Sequence record: MT682707.1
DNA length: 39,305 nucleotides
From: Escherichia phage vB_EcoP_SP7
Reading direction: 5' to 3' (one strand)
Position numbers and translations under genes: made by a program. Below the pieces are notes generated by a model. It was not told the origin of the DNA. It saw nothing but the letters and a program-made list of their open reading frames with translations, and did not search any database. Of the stretch, positions 4,610-39,305 are shown in pieces. Numbering within the stretch: position 1 is the first letter of the stretch; every line of letters begins with the position of its first letter.

Positions 4610-4650
4610 GACTCAAGGTCATGACTCAAAGTCGTGGCCTTCATGATTAA
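4609..4650 (+). promoter_or_regulatory. RNase III processing site (R1.1-like)
   Basis: AGACTCAAGGTCA...GTGGCCTTCATGATTAA; the same conserved element recurs at 11899 and 34856 and resembles the recalled T7 R0.5 site GACTCAAGGTCGC..GAGTGGCCTTTATGATT. Confidence 0.7.
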
Positions 4651-11898: not shown

Positions 11899-11940
11899 AG
11901 ACTCAAGGTCATTCACAGCGAGTGGCCTTTATGATTAGAC
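11899..11940 (+). promoter_or_regulatory. RNase III processing site upstream of the DNA polymerase gene
   Basis: AGACTCAAGGTCATTCACAGCGAGTGGCCTTTATGATTAGAC; same conserved element as at 4609 and 34856. Confidence 0.7.
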
Positions 11941-21493: not shown

Positions 21494-21536
21494 AAACCCC
21501 TTGGGTGCCTTCGGGTGCTTGAGGGGTTTTTTGCTT
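21494..21536 (+). terminator. T-phi-like terminator for phage RNAP (also intrinsic-terminator-like)
   Basis: AACCCCTTGGGTGCCTTCGGGTGCTTGAGGGGTTTTTTG: GC-rich hairpin plus U-tract, very similar to recalled T7 T-phi and in the same position after gene 10. Confidence 0.85.
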
Positions 21537-24714: not shown

Positions 24715-24738
24715 CTTATTGAATGGCCTATAGATTTA

Positions 24739-24761
24739 CCTTAACTATCACTATAGGGACT
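24739..24761 (+). promoter_or_regulatory. Phage-RNAP promoter (phi13 position)
   Basis: CCTTAACTATCACTATAGGGACT; +1 at 24756. Confidence 0.85.
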
Positions 24762-24790
24762 ATAGGCCCTTAAGGTTATAAGGAGACTTT

Positions 24791-32019: not shown

Positions 32020-32037
32020 ACTATCACTATAGGAAAC
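32015..32037 (+). promoter_or_regulatory. Phage-RNAP promoter (phi17 position)
   Basis: ACTAAACTATCACTATAGGAAAC; +1 at 32032, followed by a GGAGAC/GTCTCC hairpin at 32038..32059. Confidence 0.85.
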
Positions 32038-34855: not shown

Positions 34856-34900
34856 TAGACTCAAGGTCATTACTATATGTAGTGGCCTTTATGGTTAACA
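34856..34900 (+). promoter_or_regulatory. RNase III processing site (R18.5-like)
   Basis: TAGACTCAAGGTCATTACTATATGTAGTGGCCTTTATGGTTAACA; conserved element in the same position as T7 R18.5. Confidence 0.7.
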
Positions 34901-35402: not shown

Positions 35403-35565
35403 AGTTAAATGCTTAAAGACTGACTCAAATGGGATTCTTGAGGTGGGTTCAGTCTACTGGGTTGACTCGCTTGAAGACATTGACTCCTATGTGCATATTA
35501 GAGGAGGGCGATACATTGGTATGTTCCCATCTAAGTGGTTTGAGCCTAAGGAGGAGAACCATTGA
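35395..35565 (+). CDS. Small hypothetical ORF (56 aa) bridging the Rz stop and the terminase start
   Basis: ATG overlaps the Rz stop; ORF ends 1 nt after the TTG start of gene 19. No T7 counterpart known to me. Confidence 0.3.
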
Positions 35566-37325
35566 GTAAAGACTTAGTGGCGCGTCAGGCGCTAATGACA
35601 GCACGTATGAAGGCAGACTTCGTGTTCTTCCTGTTCGTCCTATGGAAAGCCTTGTCACTCCCAGTCCCGACTCGCTGTCAGATTGACATGGCGAAGAAAC
35701 TATCGGCTGGGGACAACAGGCGTTTCATCCTACAGGCGTTCCGTGGTATCGGGAAGTCCTTCATTACATGTGCCTTCGTGGTCTGGAAGCTATGGAACAA
35801 CCCAGACTTGAAGTTCATGATTGTGTCGGCCTCAAAGGAACGAGCCGATGCGAACTCCATCTTCATCAAGCGAATCATCGACCTCATGCCACAGCTTCAG
35901 GAACTCAAACCTAAGCAGGGACAGCGAGATGCGGTTATCAGCTTCGATGTTGGGCCAGCAAAGCCAGACCACTCACCTTCGGTTAAGTCCGTTGGTATCA
36001 CTGGTCAGTTGACTGGTAGTCGTGCTGACATCCTTATTGCAGATGACGTTGAGGTTCCAAACAACTCAGCGACTCAGGCTGCGCGAGACCGACTGTCAGA
36101 GCTTGTTAAAGAGTTCGACGCTATTCTGAAGCCTGGAGGTACAATCATCTATCTGGGTACTCCTCAGAACGAGATGACCCTGTATCGTGAGTTGGAAGGC
36201 CGCGGGTACACCACTACTATCTGGCCAGCTCGTTATCCACGCGATAAGAAGGACTGGCAGTCTTACGGAGACCGTCTGGCTCCTATGCTTCAGGCAGAGC
36301 TTGAAGAGGACCCTGAGTCCTTCTACTGGCGTCCAACAGATGAGGTACGATTCGATGATACGGACCTGAAGGAACGTGAGCTGTCATACGGTAAAGCTGG
36401 CTTCGCTCTACAGTTCATGCTTAACCCGAACCTGAGTGATGCTGAGAAGTACCCTCTGAAGCTCCGTGACCTTATCGTAGCCGACTTGGACCCAGAGTCA
36501 AGCCCAATGGTCTACCAATGGCTGCCGAACCCTCAGAACAAGCGTGAGGACGTTCCTAACGTTGGACTCATGGGTGACTCGTACCACACGTATCAGACTG
36601 TAGGTTCTGCGTTCAGCTCATACACCCAGAAGATTCTGGTCATTGACCCCAGTGGTCGGGGTAAGGATGAAACTGGTTATGCGGTACTGTACCAGCTCAA
36701 CGGCTACATCTTCGCTATGGAAGTTGGTGGTATGCGTGGTGGATATGAAGACTCTACGCTGGAAGCCTTGGCTAAGATTGGTCGTAAGTGGAAGGTCAAC
36801 GAATACGTCATTGAGGGTAACTTCGGTGATGGTATGTACCTTGAGTTATTCAAGCCTGTTGCGGCCCGTACCCATCCTGCTGCTGTAACTGAAGTGAAGA
36901 GTAAGGGTCAGAAGGAACTCCGAATCTGTGACGTTCTGGAGCCTATCATGGGGTCTCACCGACTTATCGTCAACGCTGCTGCTATCGTCCAAGACTACCA
37001 GACAGCCTCTGACAAGGACGGTGTGCGTAACCCTATCTACTCTCTCTTCTATCAGATGACCCGTATATCTCGTGAACGTGGAGCCTTGGCACACGATGAC
37101 CGACTTGATGCGCTGGCTATCGGTGTACAGTTCTTCGTTGAGTCTATGGCTAAGGATGCCAACAAAGGTGAACGTGAAGTCACTGAGGAGTGGCTGGAGG
37201 AACAGATGGAGAACCCACGGAAGGGCTTCGAGTCCATCCACACTGAGTTCTGGGACAATGGTGTCCGGGTAACTCACGATACGGACGACGAGCCGGGACT
37301 AGGGTCCTACGTTACGTTCCACTAG
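35562..37325 (+). CDS. Terminase large subunit (gene 19); TTG start
   Basis: [45 protein letters not shown] (Walker A), [83 protein letters not shown] match recalled T7 gp19; AAGGAGG RBS before TTG 35562. Confidence 0.97.
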
Positions 37326-37334
37326 CTGAATGAA

Positions 37335-37383
37335 TAACTATAGGTGAAAGCTGCATGAATACGCGGTTAGTAACCTATAGTTA
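37335..37383. repeat. Perfect 11-bp inverted repeat (TAACTATAGGT ... ACCTATAGTTA) between gene 19 and the rightmost promoter
   Basis: Arms at 37335..37345 and 37373..37383, separated by 27 nt; each arm contains the promoter-core-like CTATAGG; CTGTTTT follows at about 37399..37406. Confidence 0.6.
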
Positions 37384-37419
37384 CTACCAGTCTAACCTAC
37401 TGTTTTACAAGGAGTTTGG

Positions 37420-37442
37420 ACTTAACTATCACTATAGGGAAG
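37420..37442 (+). promoter_or_regulatory. Phage-RNAP promoter (phiOR position)
   Basis: ACTTAACTATCACTATAGGGAAG; +1 at 37437. Confidence 0.85.
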
Positions 37443-37621
37443 ACCCCCGGTTACTTATAGTATTACTGTAGTGAATATACATATGCAGACTTTATGCAAG
37501 ACCTTAGGAGGCAGACTCCGAGTTCTTACCTAAGGCTTGCACCGATGGAAGGTGGGTGATATTAATCATAATCCCTCCAATACAGATAGTAAAGACCATA
37601 GATACAGGAGGTATGTAGCAT

Positions 37622-37780
37622 ATGGCAAAGACCAAAGCTGTGCTTAAAGCTCTGGCGACCAACCGAGCTACATACAGGTTTCTTGCTGCTGTTCTACTTG
37701 CTGCTGGCGTTACTGCTGGAAGTCAGTGGGTCGGGTGGGTCGAGACTCTCGTATGTTCTCTGGTCTCTCAGTGCAATTAA
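37622..37780 (+). CDS. Small ORF in the gene 19.5 position (52 aa, hydrophobic core)
   Basis: AGGAGG RBS; downstream of the phiOR-like promoter as T7 gene 19.5; below the ORF-track cutoff. Confidence 0.45.
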   Translation: MAKTKAVLKALATNRATYRFLAAVLLAAGVTAGSQWVGWVETLVCSLVSQCN

Positions 37781-38019
37781 CGCAATCGTGGTAACGATTC
37801 ATGAGCGGAAGACCTAAGGTCAGTACGTGGATAAAGACTCACTCTACTGACCTTAGCTACTGTAGTCAAGGACTTTAGGTAACACCTTAAGAGAAGCTCA
37901 CTTAGGGTCATCCTACTTATTGGTCTATCCTAGTGTCGCCTGACCTACGGTCCTTGACCTACAGTGGCTGTGGCCTACAGTAGTGACGATGAGTTTTGGA
38001 CCAAAAGTTTGAGACCACA

Positions 38020-38217
38020 TCTCACAGTTCAAGAACCTCAAGTCTCCCCATAGGCCCTCTTTCAGTCCAGACCAAAGGCCCTACCCAGTCTATCATAAGG
38101 TTGGACCGATGGTCAATACTTCAGGTCAACGATAGGTATAGGCTATGGCTGGAGGTCAGGACGATAGGTAGGGACTATGGGTCTTCTCTGAGTCTCTATC
38201 TGTATCAGACCTTTGAG
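38020..38217. repeat. Putative terminal-repeat region with the genome left end near 38020 (one copy, as expected in a circularised or concatemer-derived assembly)
   Basis: TCTCACAGT...TCCCCATAGGCCC resembles the recalled first bases of the T7 genome (TCTCACAGTGTACGG...CCCCCATAGGGGG); TCTCTATCTGTA near the distal end resembles the T7 ATCTGTT element; flanked by CCTACAG-type short repeat arrays on both sides as in T7. Confidence 0.45.
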
Positions 38218-38218
38218 T

Positions 38219-38277
38219 CACTACCTACAGTCTAACTACCTACAGTCTAACTACCTACAGTCTAACTACCTACAGTC
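38219..38277. repeat. 15-bp tandem repeat array (CTACCTACAGTCTAA, about 3.7 copies), with further CCTACAG copies to about 38330
   Basis: Directly visible; analogous to the short repeat arrays flanking the T7 terminal repeat. Confidence 0.85.
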
Positions 38278-38436
38278 ATCGACCATCGGTAATGCCGCTA
38301 CCTACAGTCAGAGACCTACAGTTAATAGACACAAAGGATATAGACTTAATGTCTAAGACATGTTAGTCAAAGATTATATCCTCTTACACCATGGGGGGCC
38401 GATGCTAGCTCAATCAATATTATTTCAAATTACCTA

Positions 38437-38465
38437 TTGACTATAGGTATCGACTATGGCTTAAT
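38437..38465 (+). promoter_or_regulatory. Candidate sigma70 early promoter (A1-like)
   Basis: TTGACT, 17-nt spacer, CTTAAT; the spacer contains CTATAGG as the T7 A1 spacer does. Confidence 0.45.
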
Positions 38466-38577
38466 AGCTTCCGTCAACACGACACGGCAACAACCGGATA
38501 GTGAAGACGCCTGGTCATCCCGGTCAAGTAGACAGCCTGATAAGTCATACGAAAAACAGGCAGATGACAGAAAGCAG

Positions 38578-38606
38578 TTGACAAGAAGTAAGACTTAAAG
38601 TAGTAT
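38578..38606 (+). promoter_or_regulatory. Candidate sigma70 early promoter (A2-like)
   Basis: TTGACA, 17-nt spacer (AGAAGTAAGACTTAAAG), TAGTAT; the upstream GTAGACAGCCTGATAAGTC..CGAAAAACAGG closely matches the recalled T7 early promoter region. Confidence 0.6.
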
Positions 38607-38731
38607 GAGTCACCAAGCAGTACAGCGAGCCGGAACTGATAACTACATCGGCTATGCGGAGTGACCAGCGCGAATATCTGGTCTAATGAGTAAGGCGGTA
38701 GGTTACTACAGCAAGCGAGTTAAGAAAGTGA

Positions 38732-38760
38732 TTGACAAGCTGGTTTGACTGTAGTAACTT
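38732..38760 (+). promoter_or_regulatory. Candidate sigma70 early promoter (A3-like), weak -10
   Basis: TTGACA, 17-nt spacer, TAACTT. Confidence 0.35.
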
Positions 38761-38830
38761 ATACGACAAGCAAGATTAGTGAGTCCCAACACTGAAACGG
38801 GATAGCACGGCGACGACAGCCAATGCGAAT

Positions 38831-38843
38831 GCTCTTTAACAAT
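38831..38843 (+). promoter_or_regulatory. boxA-like element in the early leader
   Basis: GCTCTTTAACAAT matches the E. coli rrn boxA core and the equivalent T7 leader sequence (recalled). Confidence 0.6.
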
Positions 38844-38882
38844 CTGGACAAACTCTTAATGTGCGCCGATAGCGACTAACTA

Positions 38883-38914
38883 CAGGGTCTTTGAGTCTAC
38901 ATCTAAAGGCCCTG
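38883..38914 (+). promoter_or_regulatory. Stem-loop upstream of gene 0.3 (R0.3-like candidate RNase III site)
   Basis: CAGGGTCTTT...AAAGGCCCTG inverted repeat about 45 nt upstream of the ocr start. Confidence 0.45.
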
Positions 38915-38960
38915 ACTGATAGTCACTAACATACACAAACAACTTTGAGAGGATATAGCT

Positions 38961-39302
38961 ATGGAACGTAACGCTAACGCATACTATGAGCTGCTGGCTG
39001 CAACTGTTGAAGCATTTAACGAGAGCATTCAGCATGACGAAATAGCTGAAGGTGACGACTACAGCGATGCGCTGCACGAAGTCGTAGAAGGTATGGTTCC
39101 GCATTATTACCACGAGATTTTCACGGTGATGGCTGCTGATGGTATTGACCACGAGTTCGAAGACTCTGGGCTGATGCCTGAGACCAAGGACGTAACGCGT
39201 ATACTACAAGCCCGAATCTATGAGGCGCTTTATAACGACGTGTCTAATAGCTCGGATGTGGTCTGGTTTGAGGATGAAGAGAACGACGAAGAGGACTGCT
39301 AG
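38961..39302 (+). CDS. ocr: Ocr-like DNA mimic, anti-restriction protein (gene 0.3)
   Basis: [43 protein letters not shown] closely matches recalled T7 Ocr; acidic C-terminus; first early gene downstream of the host-type promoters. Confidence 0.9.
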
Positions 39303-39305
39303 TGA

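What the first reader, a model, noticed from the sequence alone, without database searches (positions are those of the whole stretch)
37335..37406. Promoter-core palindrome followed by CTGTTTT between terminase and the rightmost promoter
A perfect 11-bp inverted repeat built from the promoter core (TAACTATAGGT / ACCTATAGTTA) could form a hairpin in RNA or a cruciform or protein-binding site in DNA. The CTGTTTT about 15 nt downstream resembles the T7 class II pause/termination signal (ATCTGTT) implicated in concatemer processing. Its location near the right genome end suggests a role in transcription pausing or packaging.
Basis: partly seen in the sequence, partly recalled or inferred. Interest (0 to 1): 0.45.

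Follow-up and report, generated by a model that had tools for sequence, protein, structure and literature searches.

The report
Conserved RNA hairpin after terminase gene
The palindrome is real and is best read as a conserved RNA stem-loop at the end of the terminase message of a K1F-like (T7-group) phage, probably a message-processing or stability element, while the neighbouring CTGTTTT is not a T7-type pause signal; the phage's likely pause signal lies about 800 bases further right, at the edge of the terminal repeat.

Summary
The window is a circularly permuted Kayfunavirus (K1F-like, T7-group) genome. They lie between the terminase stop (37325) and the phiOR-like promoter (+1 at 37437).

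The repeat is the lower stem of a two-tier hairpin (-20.8 kcal/mol, z -4.8). In relatives the stem sequence changes but pairing is kept. Five or six pairs show compensatory double changes, and two lineages carry entirely different arms at the same place. Most single changes give G.U pairs on the + strand. This favours an RNA hairpin, not a sequence-specific DNA site.

The likeness to the promoter core occurs only in some lineages. The internal loop (GAA / AGUA, the sarcin-ricin sequence) and the apical loop are more conserved than the stem.

CTGTTTT fails the strict class II core (TACTGTT versus ATCTGTT). It is no more frequent than chance and is absent from three hairpin lineages. The positional homologue of the T7 junction signal is TATCTGTAT at 38197-38205, found in 13 of 13 relatives that extend that far.

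Isolated phages with an HNH gene in place of the hairpin show it is dispensable. The most likely role is an mRNA 3'-end stabiliser or processing site. This is inferred, not shown.

The parts
37323..37337 (+). Terminase (gp19) stop codon TAG, followed by stop codons in all three frames (TGA 37327-29, TGA 37331-33, in-frame TAA 37335-37). The last one overlaps the first bases of the hairpin.
   Evidence: Read directly. The ORF 35562-37325 is listed and named terminase large subunit in relatives.
37335..37345 (+). 5' arm of the lower stem (UAACUAUAGGU).
   Evidence: Pairs covary in relatives.
37346..37348 (+). 5' side of the internal loop, GAA. It is invariant in lineages A, A', B and C.
   Evidence: invariant columns G15 A16 A17. 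Together with AGUA it gives the sarcin-ricin motif sequence.
37349..37354 (+). 5' strand of the upper stem (AGCUGC).
   Evidence: A-U, G.U and G-C alternate at single pairs across relatives.
37355..37362 (+). Apical loop AUGAAUAC. A UGAAUA-like sequence is kept in most lineages (C reads UGUAUA).
37363..37368 (+). 3' strand of the upper stem (GCGGUU). It forms two G.U pairs in this phage.
37369..37372 (+). 3' side of the internal loop, AGUA. It is invariant in lineages A, A', B and C.
   Evidence: invariant A38 G39 T40 A41.
37373..37383 (+). 3' arm of the lower stem (ACCUAUAGUUA).
37400..37406 (+). CTGTTTT, judged not to be a functional class II signal. It lies in AU-rich single-stranded spacer between the hairpin and the promoter. 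A weak second hairpin around it is not significant.
   Evidence: (z -1.1).
37420..37442 (+). phiOR-equivalent phage promoter (-17 to +6, +1 = 37437). It marks the downstream boundary of the 101-104-nt spacer that is kept constant in length in all hairpin lineages.
   Evidence: A promoter is annotated at the same place in phage ASO2B.

Best explanation
The palindrome is the lower stem of a structured RNA element. The element has an 11-bp stem, a GAA/AGUA internal loop, a 6-bp upper stem and an 8-nt loop. It starts 10 nt after the terminase stop codon, on late polycistronic transcripts that read rightwards through gene 19. It acts after transcription. Most likely it blocks 3'-to-5' exonucleases and/or serves as a double-strand-specific processing site. 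Either way it would define and stabilise the 3' end of the terminase message, just upstream of the independent phiOR transcription unit.

The likeness of the arms to the promoter core is a lineage-specific accident of sequence or a relic of a promoter copy, not the functional determinant. CTGTTTT is ordinary spacer.

Shown here: the fold, its conservation by compensatory change, a bias towards the + strand, its presence as a single copy, its restriction to Kayfunavirus, and its dispensability. Inferred: that it is used as RNA, and that its effect is on message stability or processing.
For: 1. Fold: -20.8 kcal/mol, z -4.8. The + strand folds to -20.2 and the - strand to -14.0.
2. Unfitted MAFFT alignment of 23 distinct Kayfunavirus spacers: 83% of cells pair, against 22-45% when partners are slid; 6 pairs have changes on both sides.
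3. RNAalifold predicts the two-tier hairpin de novo on lineages A-C: 16 pairs, 5 of them compensatory.
4. Lineages C, D and E have different arm sequences at the same place and still fold (z -4.1, -1.2 and -5.7).
5. Single-side changes are mostly transitions to G.U on the + strand. The series A-U, G.U, G-C is seen at one pair.
6. The + strand is the more stable in 13 of 19 distinct sequences.
7. The stop-to-promoter distance is held at 101-104 nt.
8. All eight promoters found in the window face rightwards. No terminator-like site was found in or next to the gene 19 to promoter spacer, so read-through from upstream promoters is assumed, as in T7.
9. T7 offers precedents: hairpins beside or around promoters, some built from promoter cores (R13, R3.8, R6.5; folds). 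The window has an inverted repeat at the position of R13.
10. Hairpins after the terminase stop recur in other T7-like lineages.
Against: There are no transcript-end or cleavage data for any Kayfunavirus. The hairpin lacks the conserved sequence of the three canonical T7-type RNase III sites in this genome. A generic exonuclease barrier would not need the conserved internal and apical loops. The strand bias is moderate, and 6 of 19 sequences fold better on the - strand. Lineage D folds weakly (z -1.2). T7 itself has no significant structure at this position. Phages without the hairpin are viable, so any effect is modest.
Confidence: 0.5

Rival explanations
1. One reading: the hairpin plus CTGTTTT forms a pause or termination signal for the phage RNA polymerase, like the T7 class II signal at the concatemer junction, and is linked to concatemer processing or packaging.
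For: CTGTT followed by T's and ACA loosely resembles the T7 CJ sequence ATCTGTTACAG. CTAACCTACTGTTTTAC is identical in lineages A and E and in the HNH-bearing L013. The pause specificity of the K1F polymerase has not been studied.
Against: The core has 2 mismatches in 7 (TACTGTT), and the signal is reported to lose function with any base change. CTGTTTT and WWCTGTT occur at chance frequency. The site is upstream of phiOR, so phiOR transcripts never cross it. It is replaced in lineages B, C and D. Both the hairpin and CTGTTTT are absent from the isolated phages JSS1 and Emlis. A better, universally conserved homologue (TATCTGTAT) sits at the right edge of the terminal repeat, as in T7. No U run follows the hairpin, unlike this phage's own Tphi-like terminator at 21508-21525.
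Confidence: 0.05
2. The hairpin is a specific protein-binding RNA. The conserved GAA/AGUA internal loop folds as a sarcin-ricin (bulged-G) motif and, with the conserved apical loop, is recognised by a phage or host factor, for example to regulate the terminase message or couple it to another process.
For: GAA and AGUA are invariant in 14 distinct sequences of lineages A-C, while the flanking stems covary. AGUA/GAA is the classical sarcin-ricin motif sequence. In this window both sides are flanked by Watson-Crick pairs. A UGAAUA-like apical loop sequence is kept in most lineages.
Against: Lineages D and E lack GAA/AGUA. Lineages A-C are closely related and mosaic, so loop conservation may only reflect recent common descent. 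There is no 3D evidence and no candidate binding partner. The element is dispensable.
Confidence: 0.15
3. The element works at the DNA level: a cruciform, a single-strand DNA hairpin on the lagging-strand template, or a binding site tied to the phiOR-associated secondary origin or to packaging.
For: It lies next to phiOR, which in T7 is associated with a secondary origin (my recollection, not checked here). Covariation alone cannot separate an RNA hairpin from a + strand DNA hairpin. Six of 19 sequences fold at least as well on the - strand.
Against: The arm sequences are unrelated between lineages, which argues against sequence-specific binding. Many + strand G.T pairs would be C.A mismatches on the other strand of a cruciform. 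A 27-nt spacer disfavours cruciform extrusion (general knowledge). As I recall, the known T7/T3 packaging signals lie to the right of phiOR; the paper found here gave no coordinates. The element is absent from viable phages.
Confidence: 0.12
4. It is a decayed promoter copy, or a chance palindrome that persists without function.
For: The arm TAACTATAGG equals the promoter TAACTAT[CACTAT]AGG with its internal direct repeat collapsed. T7 also carries CACTATAG between gene 19 and phiOR. One 11-bp inverted repeat per genome is not unexpected by chance. The element is dispensable.
Against: Compensatory changes, and the replacement of the arms by other complementary arms at a fixed position, indicate selection for pairing. 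The arm mismatches the promoter at -7 and -10 to -12, so it should not be an active promoter (inferred from T7 promoter genetics).
Confidence: 0.1
5. It encodes a small protein: the 38-aa ORF 37355-37471, whose counterpart is annotated as gp41 in K1F and as a hypothetical protein in phage EPr2.
For: The ATG lies in the apical loop, and AGGTGA sits 7 nt upstream. The ORF is annotated in two records.
Against: The frame is closed after 4 codons in lineage C and after 10 in lineage B. The ATG is missing in L001 and L012. The ORF runs through the promoter.
Confidence: 0.02

Closest known systems
T7 RNase III processing hairpins, especially R13, R3.8 and R6.5, which lie at or around phage promoters
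   Same: It is a two-tier hairpin about two helical turns long (11 bp, internal loop, 6 bp). It sits in an intergenic spacer of a rightward polycistronic message, directly upstream of a phage promoter. Its stem contains promoter-core sequence, as in T7 R13, where the promoter core pairs with an upstream inverted copy. Cleavage would leave a stabilising 3' hairpin on the upstream message.
   Different: It lacks the CTCAAGGTC...GGCCTTTATGATT consensus of the canonical sites, three of which are present in this window. T7 has no known RNase III site after gene 19 (my recollection of Dunn and Studier 1983). Cleavage is untested.
T7 class II pause/termination signal (CJ, PTH and VSV type; core ATCTGTT)
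   Same: It shares CTGTT followed by T's, on the non-template strand, in the right-hand part of the genome.
   Different: The first two core positions are wrong, the location is wrong (upstream of phiOR rather than at the junction), and it is not conserved. The real positional homologue is at 38197-38205.
T7 Tphi, the class I terminator
   Same: Both are stable hairpins in a late transcript.
   Different: This hairpin is AU-rich and no U run follows it. The phage has a true Tphi-like site at 21508-21525, CCTTCGGGTGCTTGAGGG followed by GTTTTTTG.
Sarcin-ricin / loop E (bulged-G) internal loop motif
   Same: It is an asymmetric 3 x 4 internal loop reading GAA / AGUA, closed by Watson-Crick pairs on both sides in this window. 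The loop is invariant across lineages whose stems covary.
   Different: The match is at sequence level only. The context is a phage mRNA, not rRNA. The motif is absent in lineages D and E.
Generic 3' stem-loops that stabilise bacterial and phage mRNAs against exonucleases
   Same: It lies immediately after a stop codon at the end of a long operon, is stable, has no terminator U run, and is dispensable.
   Different: Its loops are more conserved than such a role requires.

Membership tests
T7 class II (CJ-type) pause/termination signal | Exact 7-nt core ATCTGTT on the non-template strand | tested here: not met
   The window reads TACTGTT at 37398-37404. The core is described as intolerant of any base change. 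No + strand ATCTGTT lies near.
T7 class II (CJ-type) pause/termination signal | Natural location at the concatemer junction, downstream of phiOR, at the right edge of the terminal repeat | tested here: not met
   The site is 37 nt upstream of the phiOR +1 position. The repeat edge is at about 38201, where TATCTGTAT is found.
T7 class II (CJ-type) pause/termination signal | Conservation among related phages | tested here: not met
   It is replaced by CTATGATTCT or CTATGTATTC in lineages B, C and D.
T7 class II (CJ-type) pause/termination signal | Polymerase pauses or releases 6-8 nt downstream in vitro | not testable with these tools
   Needs transcription with the K1F-type polymerase.
T7 class I (Tphi-type) terminator | G+C-rich hairpin immediately followed by a run of U | tested here: not met
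   The hairpin is followed by ACUACCAGUCUAACC. The scan found no terminator-like site in 36800-39305. A genuine Tphi-like site is at 21508-21525.
Canonical T7-type RNase III site | Conserved sequence CTCAAGGTC...GGCCTT(T/C)ATG(A/G)TT | tested here: not met
   Three such sites are found at 4615, 11905 and 34863, and none at 37335.
RNase III substrate (general) | About 20 bp of coaxial helix, often with an internal loop that restricts cleavage to one strand | tested here: met
   11 bp, a 3x4 internal loop and 6 bp. The architecture is kept in lineages A-D.
RNase III substrate (general) | Cleavage by E. coli RNase III | not testable with these tools
   Needs an in vitro cleavage assay, or a comparison of rnc mutant and wild-type hosts.
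Kayfunavirus phage promoter | Match to CT(A/T)AACTATCACTATAGG(G/A)A over -17 to +3 | tested here: not met
   The arm matches -6..+2 plus -8, -9 and -13. It mismatches at -7 and -10 to -12. Lineages C-E have no CTATAGG in the corresponding arm.
Sarcin-ricin (bulged-G) motif | AGUA opposite GAA in an internal loop flanked by helices | tested here: met
   GAA at 37346-48 lies opposite AGUA at 37369-72, between a U-A and an A-U closing pair in this window. The motif sequence is given. Both triplet and tetrad are invariant in 14 of 14 lineage A-C sequences.
Sarcin-ricin (bulged-G) motif | S-turn three-dimensional geometry | not testable with these tools
   Needs probing or structure determination.
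Any curated RNA family (Rfam 15) | A covariance-model match | tested here: not met
   Nothing relevant was found in 36800-38600, even at E-values up to 10.

The most novel reading that the evidence does not exclude
The hairpin is a previously undescribed, Kayfunavirus-specific structured RNA. Its conserved GAA/AGUA internal loop forms a sarcin-ricin-type S-turn, which together with the conserved apical loop is read by a specific phage or host protein. It would then be a regulatory RNA element on the terminase message rather than a passive stem-loop.
Probability: 0.15. Interest if true: 0.55.

Novelty: new member of a known kind. Interest (0 to 1): 0.25.

Why it matters
Intergenic hairpins that process and stabilise long messages are a classic feature of T7-group phages, so one more is of modest importance. 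Four points have practical value.

1. The element is a clean example of structure kept by compensatory change.
2. It shows that the ORF annotated inside it (K1F gp41 and similar calls) is spurious.
3. It corrects the idea that a pause signal lies here. The analysis locates the likely real junction signal and the true genome ends inside this permuted assembly, which is useful for annotation and for engineering K1F-type therapeutic phages.
4. The hairpin site is where HNH homing-endonuclease genes insert. The region therefore tolerates insertions and could serve as a landing site for payloads.

Tried and rejected
1. Rfam scan of 36800-38600 at a permissive threshold: nothing relevant.
2. A covariance model of the hairpin (R1), searched against the window, T7, T3 and 38 other loci. 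It found only the element itself (85 bits on +, 19.5 on -) and weak hits at the homologous lineage D site. The element is therefore single-copy and genus-restricted.
3. RNAalifold on all 23 sequences gave no structure, because lineages D and E are out of register in the sequence alignment. It worked on lineages A-C.
4. A second hairpin around CTGTTTT (37389-37422) is not significant (z -1.1).
5. The small-ORF reading was rejected because the frame is not conserved.
6. AGTCTAAC is over-represented in the window (12 copies against 1.8 expected), but its contexts show no coherent pattern.
7. ACCTACTG (37395) looks like the ACCTACAG words that flank the terminal repeat, but it is a single one-mismatch copy.
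8. The metagenome scan added no new hairpin types.
9. Literature searches found no transcript mapping for K1F-like phages and no coordinates for T7 pacB. The K1F genome paper is not in the library.
10. A genome-wide list of stable 64-nt folds did not discriminate, because coding sequence folds about as well.

Full report
**What the window is.** A megablast of 36900-38100 finds 228 phage records, nearly all Kayfunavirus (K1F-like members of the T7 group), at 80-99% identity. The ORF ending at 37325 is the terminase large subunit, gp19, in those records. Eight phage promoters with the consensus CT(A/T)AACTATCACTATAGG(G/A)A are present, all pointing rightwards. The last has its +1 at 37437 and corresponds to T7 phiOR. 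The window is a circular permutation of a linear genome. The terminal repeat begins at 38020 (TCTCACAGTT, as in T7) and ends at about 38201, judged against the annotated repeat of phage SH3. The finding is therefore about 700 bp left of the true right-end repeat, not 1.9 kb from a genome end.

**The observation.** TAACTATAGGT (37335-37345) and ACCTATAGTTA (37373-37383) are exact reverse complements separated by 27 nt. CTGTTTT lies at 37400-37406, 16 nt after the 3' arm. The arms share ACTATAGG with every promoter. One perfect repeat of this size is not unusual by itself: 0.55 are expected per shuffled window, and 33% of shuffles have at least one. The RNA fold is unusual. It has an 11-bp lower stem, an internal loop GAA/AGUA, a 6-bp upper stem (AGCUGC/GCGGUU) and an 8-nt loop. 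Its energy is -20.8 kcal/mol, z -4.8, and none of 200 shuffles folds as well. CTGTTTT occurs twice in the window against 5.1 expected, so it carries no statistical weight.

**Comparative evidence for the hairpin.** I collected the spacer between the terminase stop and the promoter from viral contigs, GenBank phages and metagenomes. There are 23 distinct Kayfunavirus versions in six forms.
- A: this window and K1F.
- A': a changed upper stem.
- B: ACTATGGGT / ACCCATAGT.
- C: ATACCTACGCA / TGCG-T-TAGGTAT.
- D: GTACCG / CGGTAC.
- E: GTTAGTC-A-GAGATAC / GTATCTCGACTAAC.

The spacer length stays at 101-104 nt in all six. On a sequence-only MAFFT alignment that includes the out-of-register forms D and E, 83% of cells pair, against 22-45% when the partners are slid. 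Six pairs have changes on both sides. On forms A-C, RNAalifold predicts the same two-tier hairpin de novo, with 16 pairs of which 5 are compensatory. Forms A', B, C and E fold with z between -3.6 and -5.7. Form D folds weakly, with z -1.2.

**RNA or DNA.** Single-side changes are mostly transitions that give G.U on the + strand, and one pair shows the series A-U, G.U, G-C. In this window the + strand folds 6 kcal/mol better than the - strand. The + strand is also the more stable in 13 of 19 distinct sequences. This favours a structure read on the sense strand, that is, in RNA, over a cruciform or a sequence-specific DNA site. The bias is moderate rather than decisive. A covariance model built from forms A-C finds one copy in the window (85 bits on +, 19.5 on -), weak hits at the form D site, and nothing in T7, T3 or other T7-like lineages. 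No Rfam family matches.

**What is and is not conserved.** The promoter-like arm sequence is confined to forms A, A' and B. Forms C, D and E have unrelated arms. Even in this window the arm matches the promoter only from -6 to +2 and mismatches at -7 and -10 to -12. Those are positions where T7-type polymerases read specificity (established T7 knowledge), so the arm should not be an active promoter. The unpaired parts are conserved instead. GAA and AGUA are invariant in all 14 distinct A-C sequences, and a UGAAUA-like apical loop sequence recurs in most forms. AGUA opposite GAA is the classical sarcin-ricin (bulged-G) motif sequence. In this window it is closed by Watson-Crick pairs on both sides. 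This match is at sequence level only.

**The ORF inside the hairpin.** The ORF starting in the apical loop (37355-37471) is annotated as gp41 in K1F and as a hypothetical protein in EPr2. Its frame closes after 4 codons in form C and after 10 in form B, and the ATG is missing in L001 and L012. It is not a gene.

**Dispensability.** In seven loci an HNH homing-endonuclease gene of 138 or 180 codons occupies the spacer and the hairpin is gone. These are L013, L014, L016, L071, L073 and the isolated phages JSS1 and Emlis. Six of the seven also lack CTGTTTT; L013 keeps it. The hairpin cannot be essential for growth or packaging.

**The pause-signal idea.** The class II signal has the core ATCTGTT and is described as losing function with any base change. 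Here the sequence is TACTGTT. The site lies upstream of phiOR, so transcripts from that promoter never cross it. It is replaced by other sequence in forms B, C and D.

In T7 the signal ATCTGTT follows directly after the 160-bp terminal repeat. At the same position this window has CTCTATCTGTATCAG (38194-38208), with ATCTGTA at 38198-38204. GAGTC(N)CTATCTGTAT is present in all 13 Kayfunavirus loci that extend past the repeat, including forms B, C and D. That is the credible homologue of the junction signal.

The hairpin is not a class I terminator either, because no U run follows it. The phage has a typical Tphi-like terminator at 21508-21525.

**Comparison with T7 RNase III sites.** Folding the ten T7 sites (coordinates recalled from Dunn and Studier 1983) shows the conserved CTCAAGGTC...GGCCTTTATGATT hairpin at most of them. 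Three such sites are present in this window, at 4615, 11905 and 34863. The hairpin at 37335 lacks that sequence, so it is not a member of the canonical family.

T7 R13, R3.8 and R6.5 are relevant precedents all the same. They lie on or around promoters, and the R13 stem is the promoter core paired with an upstream inverted copy. The window has an inverted repeat GGCCTATAG / CTATAGGCC enclosing the promoter between genes 12 and 13, the position of R13. A hairpin about two helical turns long, with an internal loop, just upstream of a promoter, therefore fits the way T7-group phages organise message processing. Hairpins after the terminase stop also recur in several other T7-like lineages, though not in all, and T7 itself has no significant fold there.

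**Most likely mechanism.** I assume, as in T7, that late transcripts from upstream promoters such as the one at 32032 read through gene 19. The hairpin forms 10 nt after the stop codon, which is followed by stops in all three frames. It then either blocks 3' exonucleases after a downstream endonucleolytic cut in the AU-rich spacer, or is itself cut by RNase III. Both routes leave a stable 3' hairpin on the terminase message and separate it from the phiOR/gene 19.5 unit. The structure and its conservation are shown here; the function is inferred. I put 0.5 on this.

**Novelty.** No description of this element was found in Rfam or in the searchable literature. It is a new, genus-specific example of a familiar kind of element, so the interest is low to moderate.

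Noticed in passing
window 38020-38205: The window is a circular permutation of a linear genome. The direct terminal repeat lies inside it (about 38020-38201, starting TCTCACAGTT as in T7). TATCTGTAT (38197-38205) straddles the repeat's right edge. It is the positional homologue of the T7 concatemer-junction pause signal, and it is present in 13 of 13 related loci that extend that far.
   Followed up: yes
window 38151-38214: A strong hairpin (-32.2 kcal/mol, z -3.2) pairs GAUAGGUAGGGACU with AGUCUCUAUCUGUAUC. The junction-signal homologue therefore lies in the 3' arm of a stem at the end of the terminal repeat. I do not know of an equivalent in T7.
   Followed up: partly
window 38220-38277 and 37957-38321: A perfect 15-bp tandem repeat, ACTACCTACAGTCTA x 3.9, lies immediately right of the terminal repeat. 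The word ACCTACAG is enriched (18 copies against 3 expected) and clusters on both sides of the repeat, much as CCTAAAG does in T7.
   Followed up: partly
window 37814-37856: A perfect 12-bp inverted repeat (CTAAGGTCAGTA / TACTGACCTTAG, 19 nt between the arms; -24.1 kcal/mol, z -4.6) lies just after gene 19.5 and about 165 bp left of the terminal repeat. From memory, T7 concatemer processing involves a hairpin end formed at an inverted repeat left of the junction (Chung, Nardone and Hinkle 1990). I did not establish whether this repeat is its counterpart.
   Followed up: partly
window 4615-4646, 11905-11934, 34863-34894: Three canonical T7-type RNase III hairpins (GACTCAAGGTCAT...GTGGCCTT(T/C)ATG(A/G)TTA). 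The third lies just upstream of the gene 18.5 equivalent, as R18.5 does in T7.
   Followed up: partly
window 24722-24771: The inverted repeat GGCCTATAG / CTATAGGCC encloses the promoter between genes 12 and 13 (+1 at 24756), at the position of T7 R13. It is a second hairpin in this genome whose stem uses the CTATAGG promoter-core word.
   Followed up: partly
window 21508-21535: A Tphi-like class I terminator, CCTTCGGGTGCTTGAGGG followed by GTTTTTTG, resembles the T7 Tphi tail.
   Followed up: no
L013 2912-3328; L014 2914-3456; L016 2910-3452; L067, L068, L071, L073: HNH homing-endonuclease genes of two kinds (138 and 180 codons) are inserted between the terminase gene and phiOR in some Kayfunavirus genomes. 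They replace the hairpin. This spacer is a recurrent insertion site.
   Followed up: partly
window 37495-37580: Two further hairpins lie in the phiOR leader: GCAAGACCUUAGG...CCUAAGGCUUGC, and the palindromic GGTGATATTAATCATAATCCC, which has counterparts in T7 and T3. Phage ASO2B annotates this stretch as a rho-independent terminator, although no U run follows it.
   Followed up: no
L002 (Providencia phage EPr2) 2618-3296: This record carries a second copy of the sequence from the 3' flank of the hairpin through phiOR, and two annotated terminal-repeat copies. It looks like an end-duplication artefact of assembly.
   Followed up: no
window 37326-37337; T7 39263-39274 (L058 364-375): CTGAATGAATA(A/C) follows the terminase stop here and supplies stop codons in all three frames. 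The same word occurs in T7 downstream of phiOR. TGCAT-containing words also recur on both sides of phiOR in T7, T3 and Kayfunavirus, for example the 11-mer TGCATAAAGTA shared by T7 (GTGCATAAAGTATGC) and form D (TTGCATAAAGTACC). Their meaning is unknown.
   Followed up: no
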